A DNA stretch of 64,000 nt from positions 96,001 through 160,000 of the IMG/VR virus record IMGVR_UViG_3300007513_000007; one strand, written 5' to 3'. Positions 30,228 to 43,800 of this stretch are shown here, in pieces. Made by a program: the position numbers and the translations under genes. Origin of the DNA: a virus. Each line of letters begins with the position of its first letter. Position 1 is the stretch's first letter. The notes beneath the pieces were generated by a model that had not been told where the DNA came from, searched no databases, and saw nothing but the letters and a program-made list of their open reading frames with translations.

Positions 30228-31130
30228 CCCATGACTGCCCCAAAACTGACAGAAGAAGAGGCTCGCGCTGAACTCCTGCGCCCCGCAACGGGGAAGTGTG
30301 TGGTGGTAGTAAAGGGCCGCAAAGTCCCCAGAGACACAACGGGAATAGTTTTTTGGGAGGGGGAAGGAGGTCTACACAACCAAGGTGCTCGCATCGGATT
30401 CAAAGACGCAGCGGGAACTGCCCACTGGACCGCAGCCCACAACGTGGTGGTGGTGGTTCCAGGGTTCGACCCGACCATCGCCTCCAATGACAAGCCCCCT
30501 GCGGGCCACACCTGGAACGAGCTTCTGCAAGCGCACACGCCTGAAGTGCCCTCCAAGGGTCAGCAGGTACGCATCAAAGAAACCTCCGAAGAGGGCGAAG
30601 TTTTTTGGGTGAAGGGTCATCGGCTTGGAGTCCGTGTGGGTTCAGGAAAAGACGATGTTCGTTGGGCTGACGCTTCCGAGGTGGAGGTTGTAAAGGATAA
30701 GCTCCAGATTCTTCAGGACTTCGCTAACGGCATCGGCACTCCCCCTCCCTTGGGCCAAGGGGTGTCTCCTCTGCCGCCCACCGTGGTGCCTGTGATCCCG
30801 CACCAGCCGCAACCCCCTTCTCCCCGCCCTACAGGACCGTCCAACTGGAATGGCGGGTTCGGTGTACCAGAGGTGGAGCCTCCAGAGGGCTGGCCTGCTC
30901 TCCCTTCCCCTTATTCCGAGATCCGTGAAGTACGGGTGTCTATCCGGGAAGACTCGGAAGGTATTTATGAGGGGGTGTATGAGGCATACGACGCCAATGG
31001 AGATTTTCTCCTCCTCATCACGGATGAGATCGCCTCCCTGCTGCAACGTCGGTACTACGTCGCTTGCTACAAAGTAGGCGGGGGAGGGCTGCTCCAGGAG
31101 TACACCACGTCCGTTGCTTCAGGTCGTTAG
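30228..31130 (+). CDS. hypothetical protein: two SH3/KOW-like beta repeats, Pro-rich linker, C-terminal module resembling that of the WGR protein
   Basis: ATG 30228 with SD GAGG; internal repeat G..V.V.....G.VFW....R.G......W....V.VV occurs twice. Confidence 0.75.
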   Translation, partial: PMTAPKLTEEEARAELLRPATGKCVVVVKGRKVPRDTTGIVFWEGEGGLHNQGARIGFKDAAGTAHWTAAHNVVVVVPGFDPTIASNDKPPAGHTWNELLQAHTPEVPSKGQQVRIKETSEEGEVFWVKGHRLGVRVGSGKDDVRWADASEVEVVKDKLQILQDFANGIGTPPPLGQGVSPLPPTVVPVIPHQPQPPSPRPTGPSNWNGGFGVPEVEPPEGWPALPSPYSEIREVRVSIREDSEGIYEGVYEAYDANGDFLLLITDEIASLLQRRYYVACYKVGGGGLLQEYTTSVASGR

Positions 31131-31765
31131 AACGTGATTCGCCAAGTGATGGTGAGCCGTGCCGTGCTGGGCTTGGAGATAACCCCAAAGGTCAGGTAGT
31201 TGATCAACACGTCGTAGTCACGCAAGTCCCGTGACAGTTCCCGTGCCGGGTAAATGTCCGGGTTGGGGTAAGTGACCAGGGGATTGTCCGAACGGGTAGA
31301 CATGATCCCCATTTCATTCAAAGGCCCTACCGCCTCTGCCTCATCGTAGGTGCAGGTGAAGTCCACAACATTGGTGGGGATTTCGGAAGCGCCGCCGTCA
31401 GCGTTCCTGAATGTAGTCGAACTCCACGCCTTCCTCTGAATCTCTGCGTTGAGGGAACGCTGATCTGGGCTTGGGGCGTCCGGGGAAAGCAATGACCCCA
31501 AAGCCCCCGTCCCAACAGCCAGCATATTCGCGCCGTTGTTAGGCTCTGAAGGGTCCTTGAAGTAGCGTGCGGCTTGGATTCCAGCGTCTGCCGTGATGAC
31601 GTTGTTGTAGTGCTCGTCGTGGAGAACTTCCCCGGTAACGGAGTCCACCATCTTGACGAAGACTTCCCCTTTGGGGAGGGTCATCGCAGCAGCATGTTCG
31701 ATGGAGAATCCCATGTTTACCCGACCTCGTGGAGATTGAAACCTGTCTTTCATCATTGAACTCAT
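31127..31765 (-). CDS. tail collar / fibre-attachment-like baseplate protein
   Basis: NVIT..G, LAVGTG, LNAEIQRK, YDEAEAVGPLNEMGI, LINYLTF..ISKP..LTITWRITF resemble the tail-collar (DUF3751-like) pattern; start moved to ATG 31765. Confidence 0.7.
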   Translation of the reverse strand: MSSMMKDRFQSPRGRVNMGFSIEHAAAMTLPKGEVFVKMVDSVTGEVLHDEHYNNVITADAGIQAARYFKDPSEPNNGANMLAVGTGALGSLLSPDAPSPDQRSLNAEIQRKAWSSTTFRNADGGASEIPTNVVDFTCTYDEAEAVGPLNEMGIMSTRSDNPLVTYPNPDIYPARELSRDLRDYDVLINYLTFGVISKPSTARLTITWRITF

Positions 31766-31834
31766 GCTGTCCTGCCTCCGTGTCCTCCACTCTACCGAAG
31801 GCCAGCGAGTACATGGTGTCGAACGTCTGGAGCC

Positions 31835-31849
31835 ATAGCCAAACCATCG
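31835..31849 (-). promoter_or_regulatory. class II motif, variant CGAT-N7-CTAT
   Basis: Plus strand reads ATAG-CCAAACC-ATCG; 70 nt upstream of 31765. Confidence 0.5.
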
Positions 31850-31869: not shown

Positions 31870-31900
31870 GGGGGTTCCCGTTGGACACCTCTCCCGTAAG
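31870..31900 (+). promoter_or_regulatory. class I bipartite promoter motif
   Basis: GGGGGTTCC 31870-31878, N16, CGTAAG 31895-31900; no ORF downstream. Confidence 0.72.
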
Positions 31901-31904
31901 GAGT

Positions 31905-32150
31905 TCATCGAGGGGAAGGCCGCTCAAACCAACAGGCCCTCTCCTCCCCCTCCAACTATGAGGACCAACTCGATGGATTGTATTTAGGGGCTTTTGTCGC
32001 CATTGTCCCGACCCAAGGTGACCTCCGGTGTGCGAGGTAGGCCACACCCCTGACGCAGCGGCAGGCCGAAGAGGTCCGCTGAAACCCCCCACAACCCCAA
32101 CAAGGACGAAGAAACCCCCCGCCCACAAAGGGTCGGGGGGTTTCCTGTTG
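31905..32150 (+). ncRNA. candidate structured non-coding RNA (~240 nt)
   Basis: Lies between a class I promoter motif and a terminator hairpin; plus-strand ATG ORFs inside it are 9 aa or shorter; stems at 31910-15/31947-52, 32027-32/32043-48 and 32056-61/32076-81. Confidence 0.5.
32111..32144. terminator. intrinsic terminator, probably bidirectional
   Basis: GAAACCCCCCGCCC-ACAAA-GGGTCGGGGGGTTTC; short T-rich tails on both strands; 24 nt past the holin-like stop. Confidence 0.8.
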
Positions 32151-32167
32151 TGTCGAACTGGGAAGGG

Positions 32168-32701
32168 CTATTCAGACTTGCCCTTGAGCATATGCTTGAA
32201 CATAAGCTCCCAGCCACCGATTGCAACTACCCCCGCCAGGACACCCTGTACAAGTGCATCCATAAGGGCCACGCCACTCGCGAGGCCGACACCCAAGGTG
32301 CTGGCCACTGCAAGGCCCATAGCCACCCAAGGAATCGCCTTGGCACCAACCTTGTCCTTCAAGCCGAACTTGTTGGCCAGCATGACAAGGAGCATCATCA
32401 GGAATCCCAGTGCAAGGGACCAGTCTTTGTCTTGGACCGCTTTGACAAGAAGGCTGATGTCATCGGCTGCTTCGTCCAGGGTCTCTGGAACAGCTTCGGC
32501 TTCCTCGGCCTTGTCGTCGCCGTCTTCTGCCTTCTCCTCTCCTTCAGAGGCAGCAGCATCTTCAGAAGCGGGTGCCGCCTCTTCCGCAGCCTCGGCTGCT
32601 TCCGCTGCTTCAGCAGCCTCGGCTGCTGGTTCCTCTGCAAAAGCAGTAGTGGGGACCGTCAAGCCGAACATCAGCACGATCAGGGTTAGAAAATGTCGCA
32701 T
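32168..32701 (-). CDS. holin-like membrane protein with signal peptide and acidic AAE-repeat region
   Basis: ATG 32701 with SD GGAGG; signal-peptide-like N-terminus ending TTAFA; EAAEAAE repeats; three C-terminal hydrophobic segments; basic C-tail. Confidence 0.65.
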   Translation of the reverse strand: MRHFLTLIVLMFGLTVPTTAFAEEPAAEAAEAAEAAEAAEEAAPASEDAAASEGEEKAEDGDDKAEEAEAVPETLDEAADDISLLVKAVQDKDWSLALGFLMMLLVMLANKFGLKDKVGAKAIPWVAMGLAVASTLGVGLASGVALMDALVQGVLAGVVAIGGWELMFKHMLKGKSE

Positions 32702-32740
32702 ATGTTTCCTCCATGAAAAATGGTCAACCCGACTGGGATG

Positions 32741-32755
32741 ATAGGGAAATAACCG
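32741..32755 (-). promoter_or_regulatory. class II motif CGGT-N7-CTAT
   Basis: Plus strand reads ATAG-GGAAATA-ACCG; 40 nt upstream of 32701. Confidence 0.75.
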
Positions 32756-40820: not shown

Positions 40821-43800
40821 CTACGCTTTGTGGAGCATGACGCAGACAAAGCCCGCACCGGTTGTGGAAGCAGAAGCGCCCGTAGTTACTGTAAGAATCA
40901 CGTCGGGAGGAATGGGTCCTGCCGTCACAGGCTCCACTGGCTCCGTCGAGTAGCCCGAAGCAGTGTTGGTGGAATCGGTGTCTCCCGATGCGAAGTACGC
41001 ATTTACGGATCCGGTGTTACCAACCTCAATAGTGCTGGGGTCGTTGTTGAAGACAGTCGTGTACCGGACCCAAACCTTGAGGATCACGTCCCCGGCTGCA
41101 AGGTCTGTAACTACGTTCACCGTTCCCGAAGTGTGGTCGAAGTCCACCCGCTTGATTTCGACACCGCCTTGCGGAGCGGGGTCTTGCCAACTGACGCCCC
41201 CAGCATTGTGGGTGCCGTCTGTGGTCAGAACCTGTCCGGCAGTTCCATCTACCGTAGGAAGGAACCAATGGGCACCCCCAAGGTCAGACCCGTTGATGAT
41301 GATTTCAGGCGCACCCGCTGCGGTCGCATCCAGTTGTAGTACGTCGTCGCCAAACCCGCTCCTGAGCAGGAGCGTGGGGGTCGTAGCCATCCCGCCCATG
41401 CGGCTCAAGAAGTGGAAGCCTGCTACCCCTGCTTGCTTGAACTCCAAGGTAGCGTGCGTCTCCAAGCCCGGACCACCCTGCGGGCCGCCGTCCACGACAA
41501 GTGAGGCGATGCTGCCAGCGACATACCCAGACGCATCAATCGTGGCCGCCGTAGTGTGCAAGCCTACTGCGGGAGCGTCTACCTCATAGGTAAGGGTCAG
41601 GTTGTTGTGGCCTGCGTCGTCCTGGAAAGTGATTCCAGGAAGGGAGGCAACGCCGTCTCCAAAGAGGCCGAGTTGGCACAAGAGGGTGCTGTTGCTCTGG
41701 AACTTGAGAAGTGCTGTGTCGGCTGCGGCCCCACCGTGATCCAAAGTAACAGTGGCGTCGTGCCCTGGTGCGGCTCCCGTAGTGAGAGTCAAGCCAGCGT
41801 CTCCCGCACCACCACCATCCAAGGTCAGGACCACCTTGTTGTCAGTGGCAAGGTCGGTGAGAGTGGCTTCGCTGTTCTGAAGCAGCTTGCCGGTAGCGGA
41901 ATCAAAGCGAGCCAACGCGGTGTCCGTCGCGGCTACGGGGCCTACAACATCACCAGTTCCCCCACTTGAAAACAGCGTCCAGGCTGTGCCCGAACCGGCT
42001 GACGTGTTTTGGTAAAGGCTTGCCGTCGCACCCGTGTCTCGGACGAACAATGATCCCGCGTCTGCCGACACGGATCCATTGGGGTCTGCGGTGCCCGCGA
42101 AGAGGCCGAAGGATTCCCCTCCCGCTCCCGCTTGGGAAAGGTTTAGGATTTGGGCATCCACGCCCGCGTCCACCTGGATTATCGGTGCCACCGTGTTGGT
42201 TCCACCGATGGTGATTTGGTCTTCCGCATCAAGAGTGAGGAGGGCGTTCCCCGTCGCATTAGCAGCACTAACCAGAAGCGTTCGATCTGCGGCGTCGTCC
42301 GCATTCATCCGAATCTGCGTGTTGGACCCTCCCATGAAGGATGCACCTGCACTGGAGGCGATGCCAATAGACACCGCTTCAACCGTAAAGGCGAGAAGCT
42401 CGGTGCCTATTCCGAACAGGACCGTCCCGTCGCCCGCAGCAGCACCGCTGACGTTGAGGCCCCCACCCGCAGTGGAAAGGGTGAGGTCGATGTCAGTACC
42501 CGTCGAAGTGGTGATGGTATGCCCAGCATCGTAGGCATCTTGAAGGGTGCCCCCACCACCGCCAGCGGCCCAGGAAACATTCCCCGCACCATCAGTCTGA
42601 AGAACATCATTTGGGTTTCCGTCAGCACTGGGAAGGGAAAACGCACCATTGATGGTGAGGACTCCCGGAGTTCCTGCTGCTTCAGTGCCGAAAGAGAACC
42701 TTTCGTTGCCCGCAGAATCCTGAATCACGAGGACATCGGATGTTCCGAGAAGTCCGAACGCGCCCTTGGAGGGTCCCGCAGCAGAGAAGGTTATGCCTGC
42801 CAAGTCAGCCACGGCCCCGCCGTGGTCCAAGTTCAACAGGGCGCTTGCTCCTGCGCCCGCAGCAGCCCCATTGAAGGTCATCTCGATGTCGCCGTTTACG
42901 GATTCCGTGTGATCGAGGAGAATGACCTCACTGTTCTTGATTAGCTTCCCGGTGGCAGCGTTGAAACGAGCCAGGGCATGGTCTGTGGCTGAAACAGGAC
43001 CTACAACGTCTCCGGTTCCAGCAATCGTGGCCCAAGCGACAGCACCTGCACCATCAGTCTGGAGAACTTGATTTAGAGTTCCGTCTGCACTGGGAAGGGT
43101 GAACTCACTGCCGCCCGCATGGTCGCCAAGGGTAAGGGCACCCGAGGTCGAGACAGACATGACAGTGAGGTTAGTGCCCAGTTCTTTGAATCGAAGATTG
43201 CCTGAAGTGACAGGATTGATGGTCTCTACCGCCCACCGGGCATTAGACGCATCCTCAAACATAAGGATGGAGGGGTCGGTGGAGTGGCCAGACTTCAGCG
43301 TGAGAGATGCCGTATGGCCCGCCCCGAGCGAAGACGCATCAAGAGCGAGATCCCCGTCTACAAGTGTGGCATTAGGGGCATTGTAGATGTTGGTGTCCGT
43401 GGTCATCAAGGCAAGCTGTGTTGCCACTGTGCTCGCTGCTGAGGAGGTGACCGTGCCGCCTCCAGCAGGGGCAGCCCAAGTTACGCCTCCAGCCCCATCG
43501 GTTTGGAGAACCTGTCCTGCCGTACCGTCCACGTCAGGAAGGACGTACTCGTGGGGGCTGATTCCAATGGTCAAGGCCCCCGTGCTGCTAACCAAGAGCA
43601 CGTCGTTGATACCGCCGTTCTTGAAGCGGAAGGGCCTGCCCGCAATCGACCCGTCTACACCGAGGTCCCATTGAGGAAGGCTGGCGAGGTCGAACCCGAC
43701 ATTGACCAAATCAGACGCCGCAGTGGCATCCATCCGAATCTGGGCAGAGGTGGGTGAAGCGAGTGTGGAGGCATCAACCTTGAGGGTTACGGCAGGGTCA

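What the first reader, a model, noticed from the sequence alone, without database searches (positions are those of the whole stretch)
31870..32150. Candidate phage non-coding RNA with its own promoter and terminator
The fourth class I motif has no protein gene downstream. Instead, about 240 nt containing several GC-rich stems end in a strong hairpin at 32111-32144. The other three copies drive real genes, so this one probably makes an RNA. It does not look like tRNA and I cannot assign a family. It could be a regulatory sRNA, a polymerase or protein decoy, or an anti-defence RNA.
Basis: partly seen in the sequence, partly recalled or inferred. Interest (0 to 1): 0.72.

Follow-up and report, generated by a model that had tools for sequence, protein, structure and literature searches.

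The report
Triple-pseudoknot RNA of marine jumbo phage
A marine giant phage carries a small non-coding RNA gene whose conserved 100-base core appears to fold into three knots in a row; it matches no catalogued RNA family, and what it binds is unknown.

Summary
Largely confirmed, with new boundaries. The promoter-like motif is real: 31 copies in the 180-kb phage record, and in a relative one copy sits directly before a tRNA gene. No protein gene follows this copy.

In four related variants only a ~100-nt core (31983-32083) is conserved. Window-versus-L004 core identity is ~80%, against 38-46% at neighbouring silent sites, and leader and trailer differ widely. The core parses as three back-to-back H-type pseudoknots (30 bp) on the + strand. 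All pairs hold in all five variants, one found after the model was fixed. Compensatory changes support the middle knot and one stem of the first; the third knot is invariant, so untested.

The terminator is probably shared with the convergent holin-like gene. A 2-4-codon micro-ORF ends at or just before the core; its peptide is not conserved. There is no Rfam match, no distant homologue and no expression data.

Best guess (0.4): a stable decoy that binds a host RNA-binding protein. The scan had not seen this sequence elsewhere, though it noted unrelated multi-pseudoknot phage RNAs.

The parts
31835..31849 (-). Outward-facing late-type motif (CGAT-N7-CTAT) in front of the 212-aa gene, back to back with the RNA's promoter
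Evidence: Conserved in all lineages.
31870..31898 (+). Class A promoter-like motif GGGGGTTCC-N16-CGTA; start site inferred about 31904-31906
   Evidence: 31 copies in the record, 8 in relative G048, 13 in G008, where one copy precedes a tRNA gene. Kept at this locus in every RNA-bearing variant, with a degenerate -35 part in L138 and L228.
31910..31946 (+). Leader hairpin found only in the window's lineage; not part of the conserved element
   Evidence: Folds; absent from L004, L127, L138 and L228.
31960..31987 (+). Shine-Dalgarno (31960-31964) and micro-ORF 31973-31987 (MDCI*); the G of its UAG is the first base of pseudoknot 1
   Evidence: SD plus a start codon 12 nt before the conserved UAG in four lineages; peptides MDCI, MD, MD, MKTL; L228 also MD. 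Translation not shown.
31987..32020 (+). Pseudoknot 1: stem 31987-91 with 32005-09 (invariant); stem 31998-32001 with 32017-20 (covaries)
   Evidence: one two-sided change (C-G to U-A) and one G-U/G-C exchange in the second stem; the first loop varies from 3 to 6 nt.
32021..32048 (+). Pseudoknot 2, the best supported: stem 32021-25 with 32034-38; stem 32027-32 with 32043-48; 1-nt connecting loops
   Evidence: three two-sided changes in stem 1 (two under the MAFFT gap placement) and one in stem 2; G-U intermediates work only on the + strand.
32049..32081 (+). Pseudoknot 3 (predicted): stem 32049-52 with 32062-65; stem 32056-61 with 32076-81; variable 10-11-nt loop
   Evidence: Found by the automatic parse in every variant. 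Both stems are invariant, so there is no covariation evidence; changes are confined to the loop.
32111..32149 (.). Probably bidirectional intrinsic terminator, shared with the convergent holin-like gene
   Evidence: Hairpin; called on the minus strand only. A hairpin of different sequence is at this place in all relatives read, with or without the RNA.
32168..32701 (-). Flanking holin-like gene (177 aa), convergent with the RNA
   Evidence: PHROG 1129 holin, E 2.8e-5.
31127..31765 (-). Flanking conserved gene (212 aa), divergent from the RNA; probably a virion protein
   Evidence: 911 homologues; distant hits to Bacillus phage G gp190 and an annotated Tunturi_5 virion protein.

Best explanation
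The locus is a stand-alone gene cassette for a trans-acting structured RNA, sitting between two late genes.

Step 1 (well supported by pattern; transcription not shown): RNA polymerase, probably with the phage's sigma70/ECF-like factor, starts at the class A promoter and stops at the shared terminator, giving a ~240-nt transcript.

Step 2 (supported by covariation for knot 2 and half of knot 1; inferred for the rest): the central ~95 nt fold into three contiguous H-type pseudoknots that could stack into a rod of about 30 bp.

Step 3 (inferred): the variable leader and trailer are dispensable and may be trimmed; the compact core resists exonucleases.

Step 4 (inferred, the weakest step): the core acts by shape, as a decoy for a host RNA-binding protein during early or middle infection. 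The likeliest partners are a pseudoknot-binding defence nuclease (as phage pseudo-ToxI does for ToxN) or ribosomal protein bS1, which binds pseudoknots.

Confidence that it is a functional structured RNA gene: about 0.85. Confidence in the decoy mechanism: about 0.4.
For: Selection: core 78/96 identical between the window and L004, while 4-fold silent sites of both flanking genes differ at 54-62%; leader and trailer differ in length two-fold. Structure: 149/149 cells paired in five variants, 4 pairs with two-sided change, 1/500 shuffles as high, slid controls 39-48% paired. An automatic parser returns the same 30-bp three-knot fold on + for each variant and only 10-17 bp on -; 0/600 alignment shuffles give three knots. 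L228, fetched after the model was fixed, keeps all 30 pairs. No reading frame through the core survives the indels. The promoter class precedes a tRNA gene in relative G008. No antisense target is shared by two genomes. Precedents: pseudo-ToxI of phage phiTE (PMC3475682); S1 binds pseudoknots (PMC7038950, PMC7708055).
Against: Only five closely related variants are known. Half of the helices (knot 1 stem 1 and both stems of knot 3) never vary, and alternative invariant pairings exist. On single sequences the permissive descriptor finds about 70 other three-knot parses in the genome, two with 30-31 bp, so the parse alone is not proof. The three knots are not sequence repeats and lack the single-stranded tails through which ToxI binds ToxN (PMC5086642). 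No binding partner or host was identified. The retained SD and start codon are not explained by a pure decoy.
Confidence: 0.4

Rival explanations
1. Ribosome-coupled RNA: the SD and micro-ORF recruit a ribosome that terminates at or just before knot 1. The RNA holds or titrates ribosomes or release factors, or the ribosome shields and sets its 5' end.
For: SD plus a start codon lie 12 nt before the conserved UAG in all lineages despite a divergent leader (ATG or GTG; SD -6 to -9 kcal/mol), and the window's lineage has an SD at the right spacing inside its longer leader. The peptide is not conserved, so only the act of translation could matter.
Against: Spacing from promoter to ATG (27-28 nt in relatives) is like that of ordinary class A genes, so the SD may be a leftover of the cassette. 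L004, L127 and L228 stop two codons earlier. A terminating ribosome would have to melt knot 1. The pattern was noticed after the fact, and chance is not excluded.
Confidence: 0.15
2. Scaffold or regulator for a phage protein (for example the phage sigma factor, or a replication or packaging component) rather than a host protein.
For: Same promoter class as many phage genes, and at least one more conserved ORF-less unit lies under it (G000 85003, 94% identical in G048). The phage encodes a sigma70/ECF-like protein.
Against: Relatives with 67-73% identical flanking proteins lack the cassette at this locus, and a model search of 47 related, mostly partial records found no convincing copy elsewhere. 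An accessory distribution fits a host-facing role better than a core one.
Confidence: 0.13
3. A new small ribozyme or ligand-binding aptamer (self-trimming RNA, or an RNA sponge for a signalling nucleotide).
For: Size (~100 nt), multiple pseudoknots and invariant unpaired bases (ACCCAA, AGG, ACG, the 5' UUUA) are typical of ribozymes and aptamers (own knowledge; conservation).
Against: No Rfam ribozyme came up at E up to 10. Hammerhead and HDV-like parses fail in some lineages (by hand). There is no downstream gene or expression platform.
Confidence: 0.1
4. Base-pairing sRNA: the invariant 3' block (32046-32065) is a seed for a host or phage mRNA instead of a third pseudoknot.
For: The 3' block is perfectly conserved and shows no covariation.
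Against: No 12-nt complementary site is shared by G000 and G048. The block pairs fully within the RNA. The host genome is unknown, so host targets were not tested.
Confidence: 0.1
5. No trans-acting RNA: the promoter only insulates the late operon by convergent transcription, and the core is a DNA site or a hitch-hiking stretch kept similar by recombination.
For: Some 100-nt windows between G000 and G048 are 94-100% identical, which may reflect gene flow, and the core is only in the top 15-20% genome-wide. The terminator is shared.
Against: The core has diverged: 11 substitutions in stems, all pair-preserving (simulated chance 0.003 or less; optimistic because the fold was chosen on these data), and G-U intermediates select the + strand RNA. 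The leader and trailer on either side are scrambled.
Confidence: 0.08

Closest known systems
ToxI type III antitoxin RNA and phage phiTE pseudo-ToxI (PMC3475682, PMC5086642)
   Same: Serial H-type pseudoknots of about 30-36 nt in one non-coding transcript; a phage-made RNA with no protein partner next to it.
   Different: The three knots are not sequence repeats, have no single-stranded A-rich tails or spacers for toxin cleavage, and give no Rfam match. No ToxN gene was found in the partial records (a weak test).
Upstream pseudoknot domain of the tobacco mosaic virus 3' UTR (PMC4683447)
   Same: Three consecutive pseudoknots acting as a protein-binding platform (eEF1A) through structure.
   Different: That is a cis element of a plant RNA-virus genome next to a tRNA-like structure. 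This is a stand-alone gene of a DNA phage; no sequence comparison was made and no shared ancestry is claimed.
tmRNA pseudoknot arc (pk1-pk4)
   Same: Starts with GGGGC, contains ACCCAAGG, has serial pseudoknots (resemblance to E. coli tmRNA recalled from memory).
   Different: No tRNA-like domain, CCA end or tag frame; RF00023 finds nothing in G000 or G048; local similarity to a related phage's tmRNA is at chance level.
Exoribonuclease-resistant RNAs (xrRNA, coremin; PMC5760640)
   Same: Compact pseudoknotted fold behind a variable leader; flaviviral xrRNA also blocks bacterial RNase J1.
   Different: No three-way junction with a threaded 5' end is evident. A coremin-like word (consensus from memory) in the knot 3 loop occurs only in the window's lineage.
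Phage structured RNAs of unknown function (GOLLD, ROOL, T4 rnaC/rnaD, candidates of PMC10690425 and PMC5737381)
   Same: Phage-encoded, promoter-to-terminator non-coding RNA found by comparative analysis.
   Different: Much smaller than GOLLD or ROOL, not in a tRNA cluster, no Rfam hit. The PMC10690425 candidate list could not be searched (no supplement held).

Membership tests
Any Rfam family (release 15) | Covariance-model match at or above the gathering score | tested here: not met
   no match over threshold; the weak hits (E 0.9-7) are mostly miRNA models on the terminator and leader hairpins.
tRNA / tmRNA | tRNA-like domain with T-arm and CCA end; tag reading frame | tested here: not met
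   ARAGORN finds none in the window; RF00023 finds none in G000; no conserved frame.
Type III antitoxin / pseudo-ToxI | Tandem near-identical repeats, each one pseudoknot | tested here: not met
   The three knots share no sequence; no such repeat family among those listed.
Type III antitoxin / pseudo-ToxI | H-type pseudoknot units of about 34-45 nt | tested here: inconclusive
   Units are 34, 28 and 33 nt; only knot 2 is fully supported by covariation.
Type III antitoxin / pseudo-ToxI | Single-stranded tails flanking each knot that carry the toxin cleavage site | tested here: not met
   Zero-nucleotide linkers in all variants.
Type III antitoxin / pseudo-ToxI | Adjacent ToxN-type toxin gene, or neutralisation of a host toxin | tested here: inconclusive
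   PF13958 found nothing in three partial records and nothing in the controls; neutralisation cannot be tested here.
Hammerhead ribozyme | CUGANGA and GAAA core with stem III pairing at the cleavage site | tested here: not met
   Position 9 is C, stem III cannot form in the window, and L138 has lost an A of GAAA; no Rfam hit.
HDV-like / theta ribozyme | Nested double pseudoknot with 7-bp P1, 7-nt L3, and CNRA J4/2 followed by P2 | tested here: not met
   The candidate P2 breaks in L127 and L138; P1 stops at 4 bp.
6S RNA | Long rod with a central bubble mimicking an open promoter | tested here: not met
   No Rfam hit; the RNAalifold rod has one compensatory pair and its closing stem is lost in L138.
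xrRNA / coremin | Blocks a 5'-3' exoribonuclease through its fold | not testable with these tools
   Needs an Xrn1 or RNase J1 assay.
Cis riboswitch or attenuator | Lies in the leader of a regulated gene on the same strand | tested here: not met
   No SD-led + strand gene follows; covariation selects the + strand, while both neighbours are on -.

The most novel reading that the evidence does not exclude
A phage gene for a spacer-less triple-pseudoknot RNA rod that neutralises a host defence or translation protein (or sponges a signalling nucleotide), with its 5' end set or shielded by a ribosome on a 2-4-codon micro-ORF: a kind of RNA counter-defence distinct from pseudo-ToxI and RNA anti-CRISPRs.
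Probability: 0.2. Interest if true: 0.82.

Novelty: new variant of a known kind. Interest (0 to 1): 0.58.

Why it matters
Few phage RNAs have a known function, and the RNA decoys described (pseudo-ToxI, RNA anti-CRISPRs) copy the sequence of a host RNA. A stand-alone RNA of three different, directly stacked pseudoknots would be a fold not catalogued in Rfam. At 100 nt it can be transcribed, probed, crystallised and used as bait without culturing the phage. The same promoter class marks at least one more conserved ORF-less unit, so this phage group may use several RNAs early in infection. The limits are a narrow distribution (five variants of one marine clade), an unknown host and no expression data.

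Tried and rejected
Structure models rejected: (1) a long-range helix 32021-26 with 32071-76 looked covarying in two sequences but breaks in L127 and L138; (2) the RNAalifold rod closed by 31970-79 is lost in L138; (3) a minus-strand fold, where at most one two-sided pair and 10-17 bp survive.

Family readings rejected: hammerhead, HDV-like, tmRNA half, SRP, 6S, riboswitch and CRISPR-repeat mimic. These rest on resemblances recalled from memory; none survived Rfam or the alignment.

Coding readings rejected: readthrough or frameshift past the UAG gives no conserved frame because of 1-3-nt indels. The 237-aa + strand ORF 32028-32741 has no SD and is mostly the antisense shadow of the holin-like gene.

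Homologue searches that found only chance hits: viral patterns, bacterial genomes (one Reyranella hit with no similarity outside the pattern), cultured phages, 47 related jumbo-phage records by DNA and by model (the best hits lie inside ORFs), G008 promoters, own genome. The metagenome scan returned only L004-type copies.

Expression: no RNA holder listed; DNA contigs laid say nothing on expression. The ToxN search was uninformative because controls were blank. A literature search for the sequence was blank; the supplement of PMC10690425 is not held. The host was not identified.

Full report
Setting. The window is part of a 180,576-base virus record, estimated 40% complete, held in marine and seawater metagenomes. 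It is a jumbo phage whose genes here run mostly on the minus strand. The flagged stretch lies between a holin-like gene (32168-32701, minus; PHROG 1129) and a conserved 212-aa gene (31127-31765, minus; 911 homologues).

The promoter. The pattern GGGGTTC-N17-CGTA occurs four times in the window and 31 times in the record; a looser version gave 1-5 hits per simulated genome. Twenty-three copies have an SD-led ORF within 120 nt; the copy at 31870 has none of 30 aa or more within 260 nt. The motif recurs 8 times in the close relative G048 and 13 times in the more distant G008. In G008 one copy lies about 14 nt before a tRNA gene, which is good indirect evidence that it is a promoter and can drive RNA genes. 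The record encodes a sigma70/ECF-like protein; that it reads this motif is inference.

The terminator. The hairpin 32111-32144 has an 11-bp outer stem. The scanner calls it on the minus strand only. A hairpin of different sequence sits at the same place in all relatives read, including two that lack the RNA. It is therefore the holin-like gene's terminator, probably used in both directions.

What is conserved. Loci of relatives were collected through both flanking proteins. Five distinct variants carry the element: the window (the same at this locus in nine other assemblies that could be compared, bar one base), L004, L127, L138 and L228. Their flanking proteins are 77-97% identical. All keep the promoter, a ~100-nt core (31983-32083) and a terminator, while the leader (42-89 nt) and trailer vary freely. 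Window and L004 share 78 of 96 core bases, whereas four-fold silent sites of the two flanking genes differ at 54% and 62%. Relatives with 67-73% identical proteins have only 8-145 nt between the two genes and no core. The cassette is thus an accessory element of one clade.

The fold. Nested folding does not distinguish the core from shuffles (z -0.41). A search for helices kept in all lineages showed crossing helices: 32021-25 with 32034-38 (three two-sided changes, p about 0.01 by column shuffling; two changes and p about 0.05 with the other gap placement), 32027-32 with 32043-48 (one), and 31998-32001 with 32017-20 (one, plus a G-U/G-C exchange). Adding three invariant helices gives three H-type pseudoknots, 31987-32020, 32021-32048 and 32049-32081, with no base between them. 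An automatic parser, whose loop limits I set after seeing the model, returns this same 30-bp solution for the alignment and for each sequence on the + strand, and 10-17 bp on the minus strand. None of 600 alignment shuffles gives three knots, and none of 600 single-sequence shuffles reaches 30 bp. L228 was fetched afterwards and keeps all 30 pairs. Over five variants 149 of 149 cells pair, four pairs change on both sides, 1 of 500 shuffles does as well, and slid controls pair at 39-48%. All indels and all other substitutions fall in loops.

Limits of the fold. With the same permissive rules about 70 other places in the genome can be parsed as three knots, two with 30-31 bp, so the claim rests on covariation, not on the parse. 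Covariation covers knot 2 and the second stem of knot 1. The first stem of knot 1 and both stems of knot 3 never vary, and other invariant pairings are possible. The variants are few and related, so the shuffle counts are not probabilities.

The micro-ORF. In all four lineages examined an SD (-6 to -9 kcal/mol) and a start codon lie 12 nt before the conserved UAG whose G begins knot 1; L228 is like L004. The peptides are MDCI, MD and MKTL, so the product is not conserved. No frame through the core is conserved either. This may be a remnant of the promoter-RBS cassette or a ribosome-based stabiliser; it is unexplained.

What it is not. Rfam gives nothing at the gathering threshold or convincing at E up to 10. 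It is not a tRNA or tmRNA. A model built from the alignment finds no second copy in the record and no convincing copy in 47 related, mostly partial records. Pattern scans of viral, metagenome and bacterial collections and a search of cultured phages add no new family member. The invariant 3' block has no antisense target shared by two genomes. No RNA run was listed, so expression is untested.

Mechanism. Shown: a real promoter-class motif, no protein gene, a core under selection, pair-preserving change on the + strand. Inferred: transcription, trimming, stacking into a ~30-bp rod, and action in trans. A shape-based decoy for a host RNA-binding protein is my best reading (0.4). The cassette is accessory, sits under a promoter class that appears to serve non-structural genes, has no mRNA target or downstream gene, and conserves both helices and some unpaired bases. 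Precedents are pseudo-ToxI of phage phiTE (PMC3475682), pseudoknot binding by bS1 (PMC7038950, PMC7708055) and the three-pseudoknot protein platform of tobacco mosaic virus (PMC4683447). It works, at most, like these; it fails the membership tests for type III antitoxins (no repeats, no tails; PMC5086642). Rivals are a ribosome-coupled RNA (0.15), a scaffold for a phage protein (0.13), a new ribozyme or aptamer (0.1), a base-pairing sRNA (0.1) and no trans-acting RNA (0.08).

Verdict. A probably real, uncatalogued phage RNA family with an unusual predicted architecture, narrow distribution and unknown function. New variant of a known kind; interest 0.58.

Noticed in passing
G000:C1:84760-85003 (minus strand; outside the window; L184): Another class A promoter fires into an ORF-less unit of about 230 nt that is 94% identical over 100 nt in relative G048, better conserved than the finding itself; no Rfam hit. 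A second ncRNA candidate.
   Followed up: partly
G000:C1:43192 (+), 51681 (-), 77288 (+), 86024 (-): Further class A promoter copies without a clear SD-led ORF close behind; some may drive RNAs. 86024 is followed by a short direct repeat. Rfam gave only terminator-type hits for those tested.
   Followed up: partly
G000:C1:79552-80472 (L180:253-1170): Sigma70/ECF-like protein missed by Pfam and PHROGs but placed with sigma factors by the ESM Atlas (score 0.97); candidate reader of the class A motif.
   Followed up: partly
G008:C1:20066-20184 (L214): Class A-type motif directly upstream of an atypical tRNA that ARAGORN reports with an unreadable anticodon; G008 carries 43 tRNA calls.
   Followed up: no
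L004:3640-3735, L127, L228 (between core and terminator): This clade has about 60 extra nt with one or two hairpins between knot 3 and the terminator, absent from the window and L138.
   Followed up: no
window 41200-43300 (G000 137.4k, 137.8k, 139.2k) and G000 89.7k: 100-nt windows 97-100% identical to G048 in genomes otherwise about 70% identical, suggesting recent recombination in the appendage genes.
   Followed up: no
window 31816-31826 and 32150-32160: The word GTGTCGAAC occurs before the promoter (conserved in most relatives) and again just after the terminator (not conserved).
   Followed up: no
L148:2085-2877: In one assembly of the same phage population the neighbouring class A gene (window 30231-31130) is called in pieces; assembly error or natural disruption.
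   Followed up: no
L200:1501-1861 (G036): A distantly related complete jumbo phage encodes a full tmRNA (168 bits).
   Followed up: partly
L013:3642-4526 and L012:6032-6639: In relatives lacking the RNA, an intein-like (Hint) protein and a DRAT-family gene lie near the same conserved gene.
   Followed up: no
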